A stretch of DNA of 64,000 nucleotides from Escherichia coli (lineage in GTDB: Bacteria; Pseudomonadota; Gammaproteobacteria; Enterobacterales; Enterobacteriaceae). Location: assembly GCF_050920415.1 (NCBI RefSeq), contig NZ_CP169309.1. One strand, written 5' to 3'. Below, piece after piece: positions 11,093 to 58,942 of the stretch; the stretch's first letter is position 1, and each line of letters opens with the position of its first letter. The position numbers were made by a program, and so were the translations under genes. The notes beneath the pieces were generated by a model, which made no database searches, was not told the DNA's origin, and saw only the letters and a list, made by a program, of their open reading frames with translations.

Positions 11093-11212
11093 ATGCCTGG
11101 CAGTTCCCTACTCTCGCATGGGGAGACCCCACACTACCATCGGCGCTACGGCGTTTCACTTCTGAGTTCGGCATGGGGTCAGGTGGGACCACCGCGCTAA
11201 GGCCGCCAGGCA
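11093..11212 (-). rRNA. rrfA: 5S ribosomal RNA
   Basis: 120 nt; reverse complement starts TGCCTGGCGGCC and ends ...GGGAACTGCCAGGCAT. Confidence 0.9.
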
Positions 11213-11305: not shown

Positions 11306-14208
<2,903 letters not shown>

Positions 14209-14391
14209 TCACAACCCGAAGATGTTTCTTTCGATTCATCATCGTGTTGCGAAAATTTGAGAGACTCACGAACAACTTTCGTTGTTCAGTGTTTCAATTT
14301 TCAGCTTGATCCAGATTTTTAAAGAGCAAAACTTCGCAGTGAACCTTTGCAGGTACACTCTGAAGTATTTTTTATTTAATCACTACAGAGA

Positions 14392-14467
14392 TGGTGGAGC
14401 TATGCGGGATCGAACCGCAGACCTCCTGCGTGCAAAGCAGGCGCTCTCCCAGCTGAGCTATAGCCCC
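14392..14467 (-). tRNA. alaT: tRNA-Ala (anticodon UGC)
   Basis: Reverse complement GGGGCTATAGCTCAGCTGGGAGAGCGCCTGCTTTGCACGCAGGAGGTCTGCGGTTCGATCCCGCATAGCTCCACCA, an exact canonical 76 nt sequence. Confidence 0.95.
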
Positions 14468-14509
14468 ATAACATGTAGTTAAAACCTCTTCAAATTTGCG
14501 GTGCAAATT

Positions 14510-14585
14510 TGGTAGGCCTGAGTGGACTTGAACCACCGACCTCACCCTTATCAGGGGTGCGCTTAACCACCTGAGCTACAAGCCT
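14510..14585 (-). tRNA. ileT: tRNA-Ile (anticodon GAU), apparently 1 nt shorter than canonical in the D-arm
   Basis: Reverse complement AGGCTTGTAGCTCAGGTGGTTAAGCGCACCCCTGATAAGGGTGAGGTCGGTGGTTCAAGTCCACTCAGGCCTACCA; canonical as I recall has GGTTAGAGCGC. Confidence 0.85.
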
Positions 14586-14653
14586 GTAGAGGTTTTACTG
14601 CTCATTTTCATCAGACAATCTGTGTGAGCACTGCAAAGCACAGTTCTTTAAGG

Positions 14654-16190
<1,537 letters not shown>

Positions 16191-24116: not shown

Positions 24117-25600
<1,484 letters not shown>

Positions 25601-35782: not shown

Positions 35783-36550
35783 ATGGCAGATACCTCTTCA
35801 ACCACCGCTGGCGCACAAACGTTATTACGCGGGCTGGCGGTTCTTAATGCTGTTTATAACGGCTGCCATGACCTGAAAAGTATCGGCGAGTTCACCGGCA
35901 CGACCCGGAGCACAACCCATCGTTTAGTCACCGTTCTGGTGGAACAACGCTACCTGCGCCACGTCCCAACGCAGGGCTACCAACTGGGCGCCAAACTGAT
36001 CGAATTCGGTGCCAGAGCGCTGGAAAGCACCTCGCTGTACGAAGTTGCGCTGCCCGTTTTGCAACGCCTTGCCCGTTACACCCTGGACACCGTGCATCTG
36101 GGGATCGTTGAAGGCGACGAAGTGCTGTATCTGGAGAAGATCAACAGCCAGCGCGGGCTGGAAATGCGCTCACGCCCAGGCCATCGCATGCCACTGGCAA
36201 TCACCGGCATCGGCAAGGCATTGATCCTCAACCGAACAGAAGAAGAGTGGCGCACGCTGTTTAAGACCTGTGGTGATGAAACAAAACTGGGCGCATTTAT
36301 TCAGAACATGCGTCGTTATGCCGCCAGTGGTTTTGCTTTTGATCTGGAAGAGAACGAGCCGACTATCCGTTGCGTTGCAGCGCCGGTTTACAACGCCCGG
36401 GATGAAATTGTGGCGGCTATTTCTGTCGCCAGTACCACTACGTATATGTCACTGGCGCGTCTGGAAGAACTGGCACCTTACGTCAAATCCTGTGCAGAAG
36501 AGATATCCGCTGAACTGGGCTGGGGTAAGCACGTTCACAAAAATAAATAA
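35783..36550 (+). CDS. IclR-family transcriptional regulator (start at MADTSS after an AGGAG RBS)
   Basis: N-terminal HTH (LLRGLAVLNAV...) followed by an IclR-type effector domain; first gene of an accessory cluster. Confidence 0.7.
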   Translation: MADTSSTTAGAQTLLRGLAVLNAVYNGCHDLKSIGEFTGTTRSTTHRLVTVLVEQRYLRHVPTQGYQLGAKLIEFGARALESTSLYEVALPVLQRLARYTLDTVHLGIVEGDEVLYLEKINSQRGLEMRSRPGHRMPLAITGIGKALILNRTEEEWRTLFKTCGDETKLGAFIQNMRRYAASGFAFDLEENEPTIRCVAAPVYNARDEIVAAISVASTTTYMSLARLEELAPYVKSCAEEISAELGWGKHVHKNK

Positions 36551-36573
36551 ACCATGACTAAAGGAAACGGCTA

Positions 36574-37578
36574 ATGTCGGGAAACACCTCATTTATTGCC
36601 CTGGACTGGGGAACGTCATCGCTTCGGGCATGGCGTTTTGGCGACTCACCCAATCCACAAGAAAAACGTGAATTCCCGTGGGGGATCATGAAATTACCCT
36701 CCCAGGCAGCAACACGTGAGGACGCTTTCCACGATACGTTTTTACGTGTCTGCGGCGACTGGCTGGCACAATCCCCATGCCCGATTCTGGCTTGCGGCAT
36801 GATCGGCAGTGCGCAAGGGTGGCAACCCGCAGCTTATTTACCTTGCCCGGTCACTCTCGAGGGTCTGGCAAAGCAGTTGACGCCTGTTATCTACCAGCAG
36901 CAGACAATGCTGCACATCATTCCCGGCGTGATTAAAGAAGGTGAAATGCCCGAAGTGATGCGTGGCGAAGAGACACAAATCTTCGGTGCTATCTCGATGG
37001 AACCGGCCCTGCAAAACGCGCTCCGCCAGGGTATGCCTGTGCTGATTGGCTTACCTGGCACACATGCGAAATGGGCGGTAGTTGAAAACAACACCATTAC
37101 CGATTTTCGAACCTTTATGACAGGCGAGTTATTTGATGTTTTATCCCGCCATTCGATTCTCGGTGCCACCATGCGTTCGGGAGATGAACCGCACTGGGAT
37201 GCCTTCGCCCACGGGCTGACAGCGGCACAAGAGCATCATCAGACCGGATTATTATCGACGCTGTTTTCGACCCGTTCGCGCCTGCTGACCAGTAATCTTA
37301 CGCCGTCCTCACAGGGGGATTACCTTTCAGGATTACTGATAGGCCATGAATTATGCGGTCTGGCATCCAGTTTGCTACGTGATTTACCCGCCACAACACC
37401 GATCGCCTTAATCGGTAGCGCCACTCTGAACAGCCGCTATTCACAAGCATTCAGCCACGTTTTTCCCGACAGACAGCTACACGCCATTCCTAATGCCACT
37501 GAACAGGGGTTATGGCGAATCGCCCACGCTGCCGGGCTACTCTCCACCAACGCCAGGGAATGTACTCATGCCATTTAA
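36574..37578 (+). CDS. 2-dehydro-3-deoxygalactonokinase-like sugar-acid kinase (DgoK family)
   Basis: Motifs IALDWGTSSLRAW, VMRGEETQIFGA, PGTHAKW, DFRTFMTGELF and LSGLLIG parallel E. coli DgoK. Confidence 0.7.
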   Translation: MSGNTSFIALDWGTSSLRAWRFGDSPNPQEKREFPWGIMKLPSQAATREDAFHDTFLRVCGDWLAQSPCPILACGMIGSAQGWQPAAYLPCPVTLEGLAKQLTPVIYQQQTMLHIIPGVIKEGEMPEVMRGEETQIFGAISMEPALQNALRQGMPVLIGLPGTHAKWAVVENNTITDFRTFMTGELFDVLSRHSILGATMRSGDEPHWDAFAHGLTAAQEHHQTGLLSTLFSTRSRLLTSNLTPSSQGDYLSGLLIGHELCGLASSLLRDLPATTPIALIGSATLNSRYSQAFSHVFPDRQLHAIPNATEQGLWRIAHAAGLLSTNARECTHAI

Positions 37579-38197
37579 TACGCTTTTGCAAAAAACCGGG
37601 TTAGTCGCCATTTTACGCGGCGTGAAACCGGATGAGATTGTCGCCATCGGTGAAAAGCTGTATGCCTCTGGATTTCGCCTGATTGAGATTCCCATGAACT
37701 CGCCGGAGCCGTTGCAAAGTATCAGTTTACTGCGCGACGCCCTGCCTAAGGACTGCCTGGTCGGAGCCGGAACTGTGCTTTCGGTGGAGCACGTCGTCGC
37801 GGTTAAAGAGGCTGGAGGCCAGATTATCGTGATGCCGCATTGCGATACTGCGGTGATCCGTCGTGCCCGTGCGCTGGGTATGTATTGTGCGCCTGGCGTC
37901 GCTACGCCCACCGAAGCTTTTGCTGCCATTGAGCATGGTGCTAATGCCATCAAGCTGTTCCCGGCTGAACAAATTACGCCTGAAGTCACCAAAGCCTGGC
38001 GTGCGGTTATTCCACAATCCGTTCCGATGTTACCGGTTGGCGGTATCACTCCGGAAACCATGGCGCGTTATCTGAGCCACGGTGCAAACGGCTTTGGTCT
38101 CGGTTCTGCGCTTTATCGCCCTGGCATGACGCCAGAGCAGGTCTATAAAAATGCAGTACTGTTTATGAACGCATGGACCAATTTAAACAACAACTAA
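37568..38197 (+). CDS. 2-dehydro-3-deoxy-6-phosphogalactonate aldolase-like (DgoA/Eda family; start at MPFNTLLQ)
   Basis: AILRGVKPDEIV..IEIPMNSPEP motifs of KDPGal/KDPG aldolases; ATG overlaps the kinase stop. Confidence 0.7.
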   Translation: MPFNTLLQKTGLVAILRGVKPDEIVAIGEKLYASGFRLIEIPMNSPEPLQSISLLRDALPKDCLVGAGTVLSVEHVVAVKEAGGQIIVMPHCDTAVIRRARALGMYCAPGVATPTEAFAAIEHGANAIKLFPAEQITPEVTKAWRAVIPQSVPMLPVGGITPETMARYLSHGANGFGLGSALYRPGMTPEQVYKNAVLFMNAWTNLNNN

Positions 38198-38221
38198 CTG
38201 ATAAATAAGGATATAAAAACA

Positions 38222-39196
38222 ATGATAAAACATCTTACCTTACCGAAAAAAATGGCTGCAATGGTACTCCTTGCCGGCGCTTCCCTCAGCACTGCGCCTG
38301 TGCAGGCGGCCTCCTACCCAACCAAACAGATCGAGTTAGTCGTACCCTACGCGGCCGGAGGCGGTACGGATCTGGTTGCCCGTGCCTTTGCTGATGCCGC
38401 CAAAAACCATTTGCCCGTCAGCATCGGGGTTATCAATAAACCTGGCGGTGGCGGCGCTATCGGCCTGAGTGAAATCGCCGCTGCCCGCCCTAACGGTTAC
38501 AAAATGGGTTTAGGCACGGTTGAACTGACCACCCTTCCCAGCCTCGGAATGGTGCGTTTTAAAACCAGCGACTTTAAACCCATTGCCCGTCTGAACGCGG
38601 ATCCGGCTGCTATCACCGTCCGTTCTGATGCGCCGTGGAATAGCTATGAAGAATTTATGACTTACGCCAAAGCGAATCCCGGAAAAGTACGCATTGGTAA
38701 CTCAGGCACCGGAGCAATCTGGCATCTGGCGGCAGCTGCACTGGAAGACAAAACGGGCGTGAAGTTTTCTCATGTCCCATATGACGGCGCAGCCCCTGCC
38801 ATTACAGGCCTGTTAGGCGGGCATATTGAAGCGGTTTCCGTAAGCCCAGGTGAAGTTATCAATCATGTGAAAGGCGGCAAGCTGAAGACACTGGTAGTGA
38901 TGGCGGATGAACATATGAAAACCATGCCTGACGTACCGACGTTAAAAGAGAAAGGCGTTGATCTCTCCATCGGCACCTGGCGCGGTCTGATCGTGTCGCA
39001 AAAAACGCCGCAGGATGTGGTTGATGTTCTGGCTAAGGCCGCAAAAGAGACGGCTGAAGAGCCTGCATTCCAGGATGCTCTGCAAAAGTTGAATCTCAAC
39101 TATGCATGGCTTGATGGTGCCAGCTTCCAGACCCAAATCAACGAACAGGAAAAGTACTTTGACGAGTTACTAACTCGGCTGGGCTTGAAAAAATAA
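38222..39196 (+). CDS. tctC: Tripartite tricarboxylate transporter substrate-binding protein (TctC/Bug family)
   Basis: 324 aa with signal peptide; Bug-family periplasmic binding protein features. Confidence 0.7.
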   Translation: MIKHLTLPKKMAAMVLLAGASLSTAPVQAASYPTKQIELVVPYAAGGGTDLVARAFADAAKNHLPVSIGVINKPGGGGAIGLSEIAAARPNGYKMGLGTVELTTLPSLGMVRFKTSDFKPIARLNADPAAITVRSDAPWNSYEEFMTYAKANPGKVRIGNSGTGAIWHLAAAALEDKTGVKFSHVPYDGAAPAITGLLGGHIEAVSVSPGEVINHVKGGKLKTLVVMADEHMKTMPDVPTLKEKGVDLSIGTWRGLIVSQKTPQDVVDVLAKAAKETAEEPAFQDALQKLNLNYAWLDGASFQTQINEQEKYFDELLTRLGLKK

Positions 39197-39212
39197 TCCC
39201 GAGGTACGGTCG

Positions 39213-39719
39213 ATGAACACAAAACAGTCTGTTGCTCAACTCGCCGTACCGCACCGCAAGCGCCTTTCATCCACTGTGGTGGTGGCGCTGTTACTTTGTG
39301 TGGTTGCTGGCGCGGTGATAATTAATGCCGCTGATTTTCCAGCAACTGCCATTGAAACGGATCCCGGTGCAAGTGCCTTCCCTACTTTCTATGCCTGCGC
39401 TCTGATTGTGCTCGCTGTCTTACTGGTGATACGCGATCTTTTGCTGGCAAAACCAGTCCCTTGCGCCAACGCACAGGAAAAACCGGCATTAAGGAAAACG
39501 GCAACAGGAATTGCGGCAACCGCGTTTTATATTGTGGCGATGAGCTACTGCGGTTATCTCATTACTACTCCTGTTTTCCTCATCGTCATTATGACGTTGA
39601 TGGGCTACAGGCGATGGGTACTCACACCGGGTATTGCGCTGCTGTTAACGGCAATCCTCTGGTTGCTGTTTGTCGAAGCGTTACAGGTGCCATTGCCTGT
39701 CGGCACATTTTTCGAATAA
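39213..39719 (+). CDS. tctB: Tripartite tricarboxylate transporter small membrane subunit (TctB-like)
   Basis: 168 aa, four predicted TM helices, located between tctC and tctA. Confidence 0.55.
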   Translation: MNTKQSVAQLAVPHRKRLSSTVVVALLLCVVAGAVIINAADFPATAIETDPGASAFPTFYACALIVLAVLLVIRDLLLAKPVPCANAQEKPALRKTATGIAATAFYIVAMSYCGYLITTPVFLIVIMTLMGYRRWVLTPGIALLLTAILWLLFVEALQVPLPVGTFFE

Positions 39720-39731
39720 CAGGGGCCTGCA

Positions 39732-41222
39732 ATGTTTGAAAGTGAACTTTTAACTCAGGGGTTTTCGACATTACTCAGTAATCCTCAGGCGCTGCTGTTT
39801 GCCACGTTTGGAGTGATGCTGGGTATTATGATTGGCGCTCTGCCTGGCCTGACAGCGACCATGGGTGTGGCGATTTTGCTGCCTTTCACCTACGGCATGG
39901 AGCCTGTTTCTGGCTTATTGATGATTTGCGGTGTCTTTTTTGGTGGTGTGTATGGTGGTTCTATCACCGCAATTTTGCTCAAAATTCCCGGTACACCTGC
40001 CGCCGCTGCCACCGCCATTGACGGATATGAGCTGACGAAGCAGGGAAAAGCCGGGCTGGCGTTAAGTGCCGCCACGTTCTCTTCTTTTAGCGGTGGAACG
40101 CTCAGCATTATCGTATTGATGTTTCTCTCTCCGGTACTTGCCAGTTGGGCGTTGAAATTTAGTGCCTCGGAGTCCTTCGCCCTGGCAACCTTCGGGCTAA
40201 GTATTATTGCCAGTATTTCCGGTGAGTCACTGATTAAAGGGCTGATTGCCGGGGTTGGCGGATTGCTGATCGCAACGATAGGCCTTGATCCAATGGGCGG
40301 TTTTCCACGCTTTACAGGTGGATTTGTGGAGCTGATGAATGTGCCATTTATCCCGGTGATGATTGGTCTGTTTGCTGCTTCAGAAGCATTCCGCTCTATG
40401 GAGCAAAACCAGCAAATTCGTCAGGGGGCGAAGGTGGCTATCGGCAGTCTGTTACTGCCCTGGCAAACACTACGCCGCATCGCATTAACCATTTTGCGCT
40501 CATCAGGATTAGGGGTTTTTATCGGCATGATCCCCGGTGCGGGGGCAGATATTGCAGCTTTTGTTGCCTATAACGAAACTCGTCGTTTCAGTAAGACGCC
40601 TGAAAACTTTGGTAAGGGTGAGATTAAGGCGGTGGCCTCCTGTGAGGCAGGCGCGAATGGCTGCACCGGTGGCGCATTGTTACCTATGCTGACGTTGGGG
40701 ATCCCAGGCGATGCGGTAACTGCCATCATGCTGGGCGCGTTAACGTTACAAGGGATGCAGCCAGGCCCACTGATGTTTACCGACCACGGCGATATGGTTT
40801 ATACGCTGTTTGTCGGCATGATCTTTTGTTACTTCATGCTGCTAGTTCTTGGACTGCTCTCTTTGAAAGTCATCGGTAACGTGGTGAAGATCCCCGGCAA
40901 TATTCTCACGCCGATGATCCTCGCGCTTTGTGTTGTTGGGACTTATGCGCTGAACAACAGCCTGTTTGATGTTGGCATTATGCTGATTGCAGGCGTGGTG
41001 GGCTATTTCATGCAAAAAGGGGGGTATCCGGCGTCACCCGTAGTGCTGGCATTGATTATGGGGCCAATGGCGGAAAGTAATTTTCGCCGTGCGCTGTCGC
41101 TTTCAGGGGGGTCACTCGACTTCCTGTATACCCGACCGATAACCCTGGCATTGCTGACTCTGGCAGCCTTTACGCTACTGACGCCAATAATACGCAAAAT
41201 TATGCGCTTACGGCGTCAGTAA
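39732..41222 (+). CDS. tctA: Tripartite tricarboxylate transporter large permease (TctA family)
   Basis: 496 aa polytopic membrane protein with glycine-rich TctA-like repeats. Confidence 0.75.
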   Translation: MFESELLTQGFSTLLSNPQALLFATFGVMLGIMIGALPGLTATMGVAILLPFTYGMEPVSGLLMICGVFFGGVYGGSITAILLKIPGTPAAAATAIDGYELTKQGKAGLALSAATFSSFSGGTLSIIVLMFLSPVLASWALKFSASESFALATFGLSIIASISGESLIKGLIAGVGGLLIATIGLDPMGGFPRFTGGFVELMNVPFIPVMIGLFAASEAFRSMEQNQQIRQGAKVAIGSLLLPWQTLRRIALTILRSSGLGVFIGMIPGAGADIAAFVAYNETRRFSKTPENFGKGEIKAVASCEAGANGCTGGALLPMLTLGIPGDAVTAIMLGALTLQGMQPGPLMFTDHGDMVYTLFVGMIFCYFMLLVLGLLSLKVIGNVVKIPGNILTPMILALCVVGTYALNNSLFDVGIMLIAGVVGYFMQKGGYPASPVVLALIMGPMAESNFRRALSLSGGSLDFLYTRPITLALLTLAAFTLLTPIIRKIMRLRRQ

Positions 41223-41276
41223 TTGATATCGCTCCCCGACGTTGGGGAGTATGAGACTGATGACAAACGCTAAATT

Positions 41277-44107: not shown

Positions 44108-44812
44108 TTGGCATTTCCCGATAACTACAATCGTCTGTTTATACCACGGCCAAAAACTAAAGATGATAATGGCCTCAAAACACTCAATAGTAAAGCTGTT
44201 GGCAGACTGCTTGCTGCTGGCGGCATATACAATGGGAATATCGAAGGATTCAGGGAAACAGCAAACAAGTTGGGGGGAGATGCACCTGCTGGTTACGATC
44301 AAGTTATGGATAACAAAGGGTTACTCATCGCTGGTGCTTCAATAGTTGCTGGAGCAGTTCTGGGGAGAATGAGACTCCCTGATTTGGAATCACTTGAGCA
44401 TTTCGGAGCCAGAGGAGCAGTATCAGGAAGACCATTTAATCCCGACCTTGCCGGTGGTCCAATAGAAAATCTGACGACAGATGGCGTAACAATCAACAGG
44501 GAAGGTATCGCTATTGTTGAAAAACACATAGCCAGATTTGGTCATGACCCTGTAAATGAAGTGATGATCAATAGACTGAAAGACATTGAGAAAGGAAAAA
44601 TCCCCCCAGAACAAGTAGATCTTAACTTCTATACTCATGAATGTCGGGAATATCAGCGTTACTGTAATCTTGGTTGGGAAACAGGACAACCTGATGGTGA
44701 CGCAGGCTATGCACTCTGGAATCATACGCATACTGCTACTCTAGAAGATTATAAACTTAAGGGAGAACTTAATGACTTATACCACCAGGATGCACTTGAC
44801 TATGATAACTGA
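44108..44812 (+). CDS. Putative toxin/effector domain protein of unknown class
   Basis: 234 codon ORF in the same frame as the Hcp-like ORF, open from the TAA at 44060-44062; no ATG or clear RBS near its 5' end; glycine-zipper-like GLLIAGASIVAGAVLG segment. Confidence 0.4.
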   Translation: MAFPDNYNRLFIPRPKTKDDNGLKTLNSKAVGRLLAAGGIYNGNIEGFRETANKLGGDAPAGYDQVMDNKGLLIAGASIVAGAVLGRMRLPDLESLEHFGARGAVSGRPFNPDLAGGPIENLTTDGVTINREGIAIVEKHIARFGHDPVNEVMINRLKDIEKGKIPPEQVDLNFYTHECREYQRYCNLGWETGQPDGDAGYALWNHTHTATLEDYKLKGELNDLYHQDALDYDN

Positions 44813-57668: not shown

Positions 57669-58517
57669 ATGAACAACATATTAGGCTCATCAATTAATAT
57701 GCCCTGTACACTTTTCGAAACTATTACTTTATTCGATGATTTTTCTGCTGATGATATGCAGTATGGGGATATGGAAGAACAAGATTTTCTCTCACTCGGC
57801 TTAAGCGACATCTCTGCAAAAGTTGATCCTTACCGCCTCATTAAATACCATTTTCCTGGGCCGAATTCTACTTATGGTGCTTTTAGTGTTCCAACTTCTG
57901 GAACAAAAATATCACAAAGTGAATGTATTGATATTTTATTTGCAGAAATGAAAGATCTGGCAAAAATGTTTTCCTTTTTTGGACAATACAAAACACTCAT
58001 CCAGGATCTGATTGATCATTTTAGATATGGAAATGGCAACAGTTTCCATAGCCAGGAATTGAACTTATCTTTTCATGAACGAATAAACAAATATGATTAT
58101 AATAGCCCAATACGTGTAATCAAAGAATGTATCGAAAATGATATTTCTTCAACACCTACGATAGGATACCGGCCTCTTCTCCTACAAAAGATTAAGACCG
58201 AATTACTTTCATCAAGACTAAATAAATTCAATGATTTTAAAGATAATTTTAATGGCCTGGGAATCAGCATTCATGATATCTCAGCTCAAAAAATATCTCT
58301 TTTAAATTTTCAAAAATATCCTATGGGCTGGAGCGCTACCATTCATTTCATAGCACAAGACCACTTTGGTTTGGATGTGACTGATATAAAAAACAAGATT
58401 TACAACAAGTATAGATTTTTTCGCATATGGTTCTTTTTACAACGGCATAAAGACTTTGCTTTCAAACCTTTTTTTACCAATTTTAACACTATCGAAAGAA
58501 TCGAAAATTATCTATGA
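57669..58517 (+). CDS. Hypothetical protein (282 aa), AT-rich accessory gene
   Basis: ORF preceded by AGGAGA RBS; low-GC codon usage unlike neighbours; no family recognised. Confidence 0.45.
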   Translation: MNNILGSSINMPCTLFETITLFDDFSADDMQYGDMEEQDFLSLGLSDISAKVDPYRLIKYHFPGPNSTYGAFSVPTSGTKISQSECIDILFAEMKDLAKMFSFFGQYKTLIQDLIDHFRYGNGNSFHSQELNLSFHERINKYDYNSPIRVIKECIENDISSTPTIGYRPLLLQKIKTELLSSRLNKFNDFKDNFNGLGISIHDISAQKISLLNFQKYPMGWSATIHFIAQDHFGLDVTDIKNKIYNKYRFFRIWFFLQRHKDFAFKPFFTNFNTIERIENYL

Positions 58518-58942
58518 AAAGCAAACTCCAGAAAATTATATTATATTTATTTCTTATATGCTGCATCTATAATTTATGGACATTGCGTCCTGTACAGATT
58601 TTGTATACATACTCTGATGCTGGCAATTCAGTCTTTCTGGTCGTTGATCATCTGCCATGGACTGATAGCGATAAAATAAATTGGTATCTGAAGCATCAGG
58701 ATGAAATTAAAAGTCAAAATCCCCTACCAGAAGGTAGTTGGCATACCTGGTATGTTATTGATATCGGTAATGGCTTCACTGACTATAAAAAATATATCGA
58801 AGGGCTGTATGAAGATCTCTACTGTTTCCCGACGATTAAGAGCAATGATAATTGCATCGTAAAAAACTATTTAATGGTTATTAATGAATATCCTTACCGT
58901 AATACTCATTTTTTATTGCTGATAACAATGAGTATCAACTAA
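58514..58942 (+). CDS. Hypothetical small protein with N-terminal signal-anchor (142 aa)
   Basis: ATG overlaps the upstream stop (ATGA); hydrophobic N-terminus KIILYLFLICCIYNLW. Confidence 0.45.
   Translation: MKSKLQKIILYLFLICCIYNLWTLRPVQILYTYSDAGNSVFLVVDHLPWTDSDKINWYLKHQDEIKSQNPLPEGSWHTWYVIDIGNGFTDYKKYIEGLYEDLYCFPTIKSNDNCIVKNYLMVINEYPYRNTHFLLLITMSIN

What the first reader, a model, noticed from the sequence alone, without database searches (positions are those of the whole stretch)
14510..14585. tRNA-Ile in the rRNA spacer appears to lack one nucleotide in the D-arm
The gene reads ...GCTCAGGTGGTTAAGCGCACC... whereas the canonical E. coli tRNA-Ile(GAU), from memory, is ...GCTCAGGTGGTTAGAGCGCACC... 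This gives 76 rather than 77 nt and shortens the D-stem. The adjacent tRNA-Ala is exactly canonical. This is either a defective tRNA copy (tolerable given other rrn operons) or a local sequence error.
Basis: partly seen in the sequence, partly recalled or inferred. Interest (0 to 1): 0.4.

Follow-up and report, generated by a model that had tools for sequence, protein, structure and literature searches.

The report
Likely sequencing error in tRNA-Ile gene
The missing base in this E. coli tRNA-Ile gene is really in the sequence, but it is almost certainly an assembly error, one of a cluster of small insertions and deletions confined to the repeated ribosomal RNA operon.

Summary
The tRNA-Ile(GAU) gene at 14510-14585 (minus strand) is 76 nt. 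It lacks the base that encodes G22, which is the missing C between window positions 14563 and 14564. The gene is ileT, in the 16S-23S spacer of the E. coli rrnA operon.

The deletion is most likely a consensus error and not biology:
- None of 16,299 tRNA-Ile copies in 5,407 complete E. coli genomes has it, and none of 100,044 species genomes has this D-arm.
- The same operon carries six more private lesions in 16S and 23S rRNA, including two 2-nt deletions in invariant 16S segments. Three of the four searched are absent from about 37,880 E. coli copies each.
- Against the closest genome (99.96% identical), 9 of 11 indel events fall in the 5.1-kb rrn operon (P = 6e-9). The other two are homopolymer-length changes.
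- That sister assembly has its own scattered rrn indels, and some of the same ones sit in different operons.
- Five of 13 distinct indel events lie in or next to Dam or Dcm sites (P = 1.6e-4).

This is the known pattern of long-read errors that polishing cannot remove from repeats. I cannot check reads. Interest is low.

The parts
14510..14585 (-). tRNA-Ile(GAU), the ileT gene of the rrnA spacer. It is 76 nt where the canonical gene is 77 nt.
   Evidence: ARAGORN; Rfam RF00005 at 58.5 bits against 66.3 bits for K-12 ileT.
14563..14564 (-). Site of the missing base. On the plus strand it reads cgct|taacc where the canonical sequence is cgctCtaacc. This is the loss of G22 in the 3' strand of the D-stem.
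   Evidence: Pairwise and three-way alignments. Absent from all 16,299 E. coli copies and from the GTDB species genomes.
14392..14467 (-). tRNA-Ala(UGC), alaT. No difference from K-12 alaT.
14654..16190 (-). 16S rRNA (rrsA). It has two private 2-nt deletions: AT of GGGGAATATTGCAC near 15826/15827 (16S positions 364-365), and TA of AACCTTACCTGG near 15211/15212 (positions 982-983). It also has a 1-nt deletion in AAA near 15045 (position 1150) that the sister assembly shares.
   Evidence: Rfam; alignments; population searches.
11306..14208 (-). 23S rRNA (rrlA) with private lesions. One nt is lost at 13523 in GGTGATCTAG (a Dam site, 23S position 687). A G is lost at 13320/13321 (position 891). 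There is an insertion plus a substitution at 11716-11719 (position ~2492). There is a G>A substitution at 13853.
   Evidence: Lesions 891 and 2492 are each absent from about 37,880 E. coli copies.
11095..11210 (-). 5S rRNA (rrfA), the end of the operon. No private lesion.
24275..25253 (-). IS621 transposase gene (a repeated element), split by frameshifts. The private change is CCCGGG>CCCGG at about 24650. This is one of only two window-versus-sister indels outside the rrn operon.
58903..58909 (+). T7>T6 homopolymer change that truncates the DUF943-family gene to 142 aa from 165 aa. This is the other indel outside the rrn operon.
   Evidence: The T6 form is found in only 3 of 751 genomes that carry the gene.

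Best explanation
The gene is the ordinary ileT tRNA-Ile(GAU) of the E. coli rrnA operon. The missing G22 is a consensus or assembly error in the deposited sequence, not a property of the organism. The rrn operon is a 5-kb repeat with seven copies. Noisy long-read consensus errors in such repeats (indels, often at Dam or Dcm methylation motifs and short repeats) cannot be corrected by short reads, because those reads map ambiguously. Such errors therefore survive there while the unique flanks are cleaned up. What is shown: the deletion, its uniqueness, the clustering of indels in the repeat, and their context bias. What is inferred: the sequencing and polishing history of the assembly.
For: (1) Uniqueness. 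The best match among 16,299 copies in 5,407 complete E. coli genomes is 99.0% (101 query bases against 102 subject bases), so no copy has the deletion. A 34-mer and a 21-mer spanning the altered D-arm have no exact match in 100,044 species-representative genomes.
(2) Company. The same operon has six further private lesions in rRNA, including 2-nt deletions in invariant 16S segments. Three of the four searched are absent from about 37,880 E. coli rRNA copies each. The fourth is found only in the sister assembly. The Dam-site deletion at 13523 and the substitution at 13853 were not searched.
(3) Clustering. Against the 99.96%-identical genome NZ_CP169399.1, 9 of 11 indel events lie in the 5.1-kb rrn operon, which is 8% of the window (binomial P = 6e-9). 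The two outside are homopolymer-length changes, one of them in the repeated IS621 element.
(4) Spectrum. Inside the rrn operon, indels outnumber substitutions by about 9 to 2. Outside it the ratio is 2 to 6. This is the reverse of what conserved rRNA genes should show.
(5) The sister assembly behaves the same way. Its rrnA, rrnG and rrnH each carry private indels. The 16S AT deletion found in the window's rrnA sits in rrnG and rrnH of the sister assembly but not in its rrnA. Such a patchy recurrence points to a context-dependent error.
(6) Context. Five of 13 distinct indel events are in or within 2 nt of GATC or CCWGG, against 4.4% of positions expected (P = 1.6e-4). ONT consensus errors are known to concentrate in Dcm motifs and homopolymers (PMC6591954). 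Errors are known to persist in repeats after short-read polishing (PMC8812927).
(7) Rough odds. Six other private lesions in about 5,030 nt give a roughly 9% chance that a 77-nt gene catches one. A real allele has a frequency below 1 in 16,299.
Against: No reads or assembly metadata are available, so the error is inferred and not observed. The tRNA deletion itself is not in a Dam or Dcm motif or a homopolymer; its context is TTAGAGC. E. coli has three ileT/U/V copies, so a real loss of one would be tolerated. Lesions shared between the window and the sister assembly could in principle be real variants spread by gene conversion.
Confidence: 0.93

Rival explanations
1. The deletion is a real mutation. 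This strain's rrnA carries a defective or impaired ileT allele lacking G22. The cell tolerates it because ileU and ileV in rrnD and rrnH supply tRNA-Ile(GAU).
For: The sequence as given has the deletion. The gene still scores as a tRNA (58.5 bits) and keeps anticodon GAU, A73, C4-G69 and C29-G41. E. coli genomes have a median of three such genes.
Against: The allele appears in 0 of 16,299 copies and 0 of 100,044 species genomes. It coincides with six other private lesions in the same operon, at sites under far stronger constraint. The closest relative has the canonical gene at the same locus. The deletion removes the C13-G22 pair and sits next to the U12-A23, U20 and U21 isoleucine identity and editing determinants (PMC9976931). 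It would therefore be selected against or erased by gene conversion.
Confidence: 0.04
2. The whole rrnA operon of this lineage is a real, decaying (pseudogenised) rRNA operon. The tRNA deletion is one of several true inactivating lesions.
For: Several lesions cluster in one operon. Two of them, the 16S AT deletion and the A1150 deletion, also appear in the related strain's assembly.
Against: The window and its relative differ by only 6 substitutions in about 58 kb of flanking DNA. Seven lesions in 5 kb of the most conserved genes in that time is implausible. The shared lesions sit in different operons in the two assemblies, and each operon of the relative has its own private indels. That would mean several rrn operons decaying at once. 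The spectrum is dominated by indels and biased toward Dam and Dcm sites, which is a technical signature. The operon's promoter-to-5S architecture is otherwise intact.
Confidence: 0.02
3. The error comes from collapse or mis-mapping of divergent rrn copies during polishing. On this reading a polisher introduced the error, and it is not an uncorrected long-read error.
For: The lesions are confined to repeats. Several are not in homopolymers or methylation motifs, including the tRNA one.
Against: All E. coli ileT/U/V copies are identical across the site, so mixing copies should not create a deletion there. This is a variant of the main explanation, with the same practical consequence, and not a true rival.
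Confidence: 0.15

Closest known systems
E. coli ileT, the tRNA-Ile(GAU) of the rrnA 16S-23S spacer (K-12 b3852)
   Same: Same locus: hemG, then 16S, tRNA-Ile, tRNA-Ala, 23S and 5S, then mobB. Same sequence at 76 of 77 positions. Same anticodon, acceptor stem, anticodon stem, T-arm and encoded CCA end.
   Different: Lacks G22. The D-stem is reduced to three pairs plus a C13.A22 mismatch. The RF00005 score is 7.8 bits lower.
Residual long-read (ONT-type) consensus errors in genomic repeats after short-read polishing (Wick & Holt 2022, PMC8812927; Wick, Judd & Holt 2019, PMC6591954)
   Same: The lesions are mostly indels. They are confined to multi-copy sequence (the rrn operon and IS621) plus one homopolymer. 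They are enriched at Dcm and Dam motifs. The unique flanks are clean.
   Different: The sequencing platform and pipeline of this assembly are unknown to me. The tRNA lesion itself is in neither a methylation motif nor a homopolymer.
rrn operons of E. coli MFDS1022581 (NZ_CP169399.1), the closest complete genome
   Same: 99.96% identical over the window. It shares the 16S A1150 deletion in rrnA. It shows the same kind of scattered rrn indels, including the identical 16S AT deletion.
   Different: Its rrnA ileT is canonical at 77 nt. Its AT deletion lies in rrnG and rrnH, not rrnA. It has an extra IS2 copy.

Membership tests
tRNA-Ile(GAU), rrn-spacer ileT/ileU/ileV | Anticodon GAU and a cloverleaf recognised by tRNA models | tested here: met
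   ARAGORN calls tRNA-Ile (gat). RF00005 scores 58.5 bits against a gathering score of 29.
tRNA-Ile(GAU), rrn-spacer ileT/ileU/ileV | Position between 16S rRNA and tRNA-Ala(UGC) in an rrn operon; for ileT, the operon flanked by hemG and mobB | tested here: met
   Rfam map; synteny with annotated genomes.
tRNA-Ile(GAU), rrn-spacer ileT/ileU/ileV | 77-nt sequence with a four-pair D-stem (G10-C25, C11-G24, U12-A23, C13-G22) | tested here: not met
   The gene is 76 nt and G22 is absent. Infernal marks C13.A22 as a non-standard pair. This is the only failing feature, and I attribute it to sequence error.
tRNA-Ile(GAU), rrn-spacer ileT/ileU/ileV | Bacterial isoleucine identity set: A73, C4-G69, U12-A23, C29-G41, G16, U20, U21, G34 A35 U36 A37 A38 (PMC9976931) | tested here: met
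   All the listed nucleotides are present in the sequence (list). Whether U12-A23 and the D-loop geometry would survive the loss of G22 is not testable here.
Assembly or consensus error in a repeat | The variant is absent from independent genomes of the species | tested here: met
   0 of 16,299 copies; 0 hits in the GTDB species genomes.
Assembly or consensus error in a repeat | Errors cluster in multi-copy sequence while the unique sequence is clean | tested here: met
   9 of 11 indel events lie in the rrn operon, P = 6e-9. One of the remaining two is in IS621.
Assembly or consensus error in a repeat | Co-occurring lesions hit positions under extreme purifying selection | tested here: met
   2-nt deletions in invariant 16S segments and lesions in 23S. 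Three of the four searched are absent from about 37,880 copies each. The fourth is present only in the sister assembly.
Assembly or consensus error in a repeat | The error spectrum is typical of the platform: indels, methylation motifs, homopolymers | tested here: met
   Indels outnumber substitutions about 9 to 2 inside the rrn operon. Five of 13 events are at Dam or Dcm sites (P = 1.6e-4), and four are in runs of three or more identical bases, one of which also counts among the Dcm sites. The tRNA lesion itself falls in the 'other' class.
Assembly or consensus error in a repeat | Reads contradict the consensus at the site | not testable with these tools
   No reads or assembly metadata are available.
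tRNA pseudogene or real defective tRNA allele | The lesion is reproducible in the organism's DNA and inherited in related strains | tested here: not met
   The closest relative (99.96% identical) has the canonical gene at the same locus. No other genome has the lesion. The strain's own DNA cannot be examined.

The most novel reading that the evidence does not exclude
The deletion is real. This E. coli lineage would then carry a truly degenerate rrnA operon: a tRNA-Ile lacking G22, plus small deletions in invariant 16S and 23S segments. That would be a natural example of an rrn operon being pseudogenised, or of a three-pair D-stem tRNA-Ile being tolerated in vivo.
Probability: 0.04. Interest if true: 0.4.

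Novelty: not a real feature. Interest (0 to 1): 0.07.

Why it matters
There is little biological consequence. The gene is the well-known ileT, and the odd base count most likely reflects the assembly and not the cell. The practical point concerns data quality. The whole rrn operon in this window, and those of the closest public genome, carry uncorrected indels. Their 16S, 23S and tRNA sequences should not be used for variant calling, primer or probe design, rRNA heterogeneity studies, or tRNA gene censuses without checking reads. If the deletion were real, it would be a rare natural case of a tolerated D-stem deletion next to IleRS identity and editing determinants. The evidence makes that very unlikely.

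Tried and rejected
- A normal alternative allele. I searched all complete E. coli genomes and 100,044 species genomes, with a 34-mer and then a looser 21-mer. Nothing was found, so I rejected this. The first attempt at the genome scan failed for lack of a free slot.
- Errors on the other side. The window might have been correct and the closest relative wrong at the differing rrn sites. A three-way alignment with K-12 rrnA showed that each assembly has its own private lesions. At the tRNA site the window is the odd one out.
- One common sequence motif, such as a strain-specific methylation site, explaining all the lesions. Dam and Dcm sites are significantly enriched. About five lesions, including the tRNA one, fit neither a methylation motif nor a homopolymer, so no single motif accounts for all of them.
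- Homopolymer errors across unique regions, which would indicate a long-read-only assembly. I found only one in about 58 kb (T7>T6 at 58909), so the unique sequence is essentially clean.
- PMC10039527. I read it for an explicit statement on Dam and Dcm errors, but it only mentions modified-base miscalls in general terms. I used PMC6591954 instead.
- Technical note. Loci L003 and L006 were not written to the script folder. I re-fetched rrnH as L007 and compared L003 with DNA alignment.

Full report
**What is there.** ARAGORN finds two tRNA genes in the window, both on the minus strand: tRNA-Ala(UGC) at 14392-14467 and tRNA-Ile(GAU) at 14510-14585. Rfam places them between a complete 16S rRNA (14654-16190) and a complete 23S rRNA (11306-14208), followed by 5S (11095-11210), all on the minus strand. 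The flanking genes are hemG and trkH on one side and mobB and mobA on the other. They identify the operon as E. coli rrnA, so the tRNA gene is ileT.

**The observation.** The sense strand of the gene is 76 nt and reads ...GCTCAGGTGGTTAAGCGCACC.... K-12 ileT is 77 nt and reads ...GCTCAGGTGGTTAGAGCGCACC.... The single difference is the loss of G22, the 3' partner of C13 in the D-stem. On the plus strand, a C is missing between 14563 and 14564. Infernal aligns the copy with a C13.A22 mismatch. The score on the tRNA model falls from 66.3 to 58.5 bits, still well above the gathering score of 29. The tRNA-Ala shows no difference from K-12 alaT.

**Is it a known allele?** No. A 101-nt query centred on the gene finds 16,299 places in 5,407 of 5,426 complete E. 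coli genomes. The best identity anywhere is 99.0%, which is 101 query bases aligned to 102 subject bases, so every copy has the extra base. Exact-match scans of 100,044 species-representative genomes found nothing. I used a 34-mer covering the D-arm and anticodon stem, then a 21-mer covering only the D-arm.

**The surroundings decide the matter.**
- The closest genome is E. coli MFDS1022581 (NZ_CP169399.1). It is 99.96% identical over the whole window apart from one extra IS2 copy.
- The two sequences differ by only 6 substitutions and 2 indels in about 58 kb outside the rrn operon. Inside the 5.1-kb operon they differ by about 9 indel events and 2 substitutions.
- The chance that 9 or more of 11 indel events fall in 8% of the sequence is 6e-9.
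- The two indels outside the operon are homopolymer-length changes. One is CCCGGG>CCCGG in the repeated element IS621. The other is T7>T6 in a DUF943-family gene, a form seen in only 3 of 751 genomes that carry the gene.

**Polarising the rrn differences.** Alignment with K-12 rrnA shows which assembly is the odd one at each site.
- Lesions private to the window:
  - a 2-nt deletion in GGGGAATATTGCAC (16S positions 364-365);
  - a 2-nt deletion in AACCTTACCTGG (16S positions 982-983);
  - the tRNA-Ile G22 deletion;
  - a 1-nt deletion in GGTGATCTAG (23S position 687);
  - a G deletion at 23S position 891;
  - an insertion plus a substitution near 23S position 2492;
  - one substitution.
- The relative has three private 1-nt deletions of its own in rrnA (16S position 708, 23S positions 35 and 1142).
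- Both assemblies lack one A of the AAA at 16S position 1150.

**Population checks on the rRNA lesions.** The 16S TA deletion, the 23S 891 deletion and the 23S 2492 lesion are each absent from about 37,880 E. coli rRNA gene copies. The 16S AT deletion occurs in only one other record, the same relative. There it lies in rrnG and rrnH and not in rrnA. The A1150 deletion occurs in the relative (rrnA and rrnH, not rrnG) and in one unrelated genome. I did not search the Dam-site deletion at 13523 or the substitution at 13853. Each rrn copy of the relative that I examined has further private indels.

**Interpretation.** The picture has these elements:
- small indels in the most conserved genes of the cell;
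- clean unique flanks;
- an indel-to-substitution ratio that is the reverse of the one in the flanks;
- patchy recurrence of the same indel in different operon copies of two closely related assemblies;
- an excess of events in or next to Dam (GATC) and Dcm (CCWGG) sites, 5 of 13 against 4.4% of positions expected (P = 1.6e-4).

This is the signature of long-read consensus errors that remained in repeats. Published benchmarks describe both halves of it. ONT consensus errors concentrate in Dcm motifs and homopolymers in Enterobacteriaceae (PMC6591954). After short-read polishing, most residual errors lie in repeats, because short-read alignment is unreliable there (PMC8812927). That this particular assembly was made that way is my inference. 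I have no reads or metadata.

**Rough odds for the tRNA site.** The six other private lesions in about 5,030 nt of the operon imply a roughly 9% chance that a 77-nt gene catches one such error. A real G22-deletion allele has an observed frequency below 1 in 16,299. The artefact reading is therefore favoured by about three orders of magnitude. The tRNA lesion's own context (TTAGAGC) is neither a methylation motif nor a homopolymer. That is the main reason I do not put confidence above about 0.93.

**If it were real.** The tRNA would lose the C13-G22 pair. The D-loop would shift next to U12-A23, G16, U20 and U21, which are listed as E. coli isoleucine identity and editing determinants (PMC9976931). 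All other determinants are intact in the sequence: A73, C4-G69, C29-G41 and the anticodon loop. E. coli genomes have a median of three tRNA-Ile(GAU) genes, so a defective copy could be tolerated. It would still have to explain the simultaneous lesions in 16S and 23S rRNA and their absence from the 99.96%-identical relative at the same locus. I give it about 4%, and about 2% to a truly decaying rrnA operon.

**Comparison with what is known.** The gene is ileT in every respect except the one failed feature, the 77-nt length with a four-pair D-stem. I attribute that failure to the data. The phenomenon belongs to a known class of assembly artefact.

**Verdict.** This is not a real feature. Interest is low (0.07). 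The useful outcome is a warning that the rRNA and tRNA sequences of this operon, and those of the related public assembly, contain uncorrected indels.

Noticed in passing
window 11306-16190 (16S and 23S rRNA, minus strand): about 15826/7, 15211/2, 15045, 13853, 13523, 13320/1, 11716-11719: Six further lesions private to the window, plus one shared with the sister assembly, in 16S and 23S rRNA. They include two 2-nt deletions in invariant 16S segments. Nearly all are absent from about 37,880 E. coli copies each.
   Followed up: yes
L001, L005, L007 (NZ_CP169399.1 rrnA, rrnG, rrnH): The closest public genome, E. coli MFDS1022581, carries its own scattered indels in at least three rrn operons. 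They include the same 16S AT deletion, but in rrnG and rrnH. Its annotated 16S genes are 1539-1540 nt where the normal length is 1542 nt.
   Followed up: partly
window 24275-25253 (minus strand): The IS621 (IS110-family) transposase is split into ORFs of 215 aa and 76 aa. One 1-nt deletion (C4>C3) is shared with the sister assembly. One (CCCGGG>CCCGG, about 24650) is private to the window.
   Followed up: partly
window 58514-58942 (plus strand), change at 58903-58909: The DUF943-family gene is truncated to 142 aa (165 aa in the relative) by a T7>T6 homopolymer change. The T6 form is found in only 3 of 751 E. coli genomes that have the gene. It could be a real slippage variant or another consensus error.
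   Followed up: partly
window about 44217-44220; L001 44225-45554: The relative has an IS2 copy inserted here, beside a tssD (Hcp) pseudogene and an HNH-endonuclease fragment. The window lacks this IS2, so the two are distinct isolates.
   Followed up: no
window about 35787-41226: By homology to the relative's annotation, a block of six genes lies downstream of rmuC, with udp following it. It comprises an IclR-family regulator, 2-dehydro-3-deoxygalactonokinase, KDPGal aldolase and a TctABC-type tripartite tricarboxylate transporter.
   Followed up: no
window 14216-14324 (minus strand): An Rfam StyR-44 match (124.9 bits) lies in the spacer just upstream of 23S rRNA. It is an ordinary part of enterobacterial rrn operons.
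   Followed up: no
window 1-25000: This region is 99.9% identical to one complete E. coli genome. Every other listed genome that covers it is at most about 97.8% identical, which suggests a sparsely sampled lineage.
   Followed up: no
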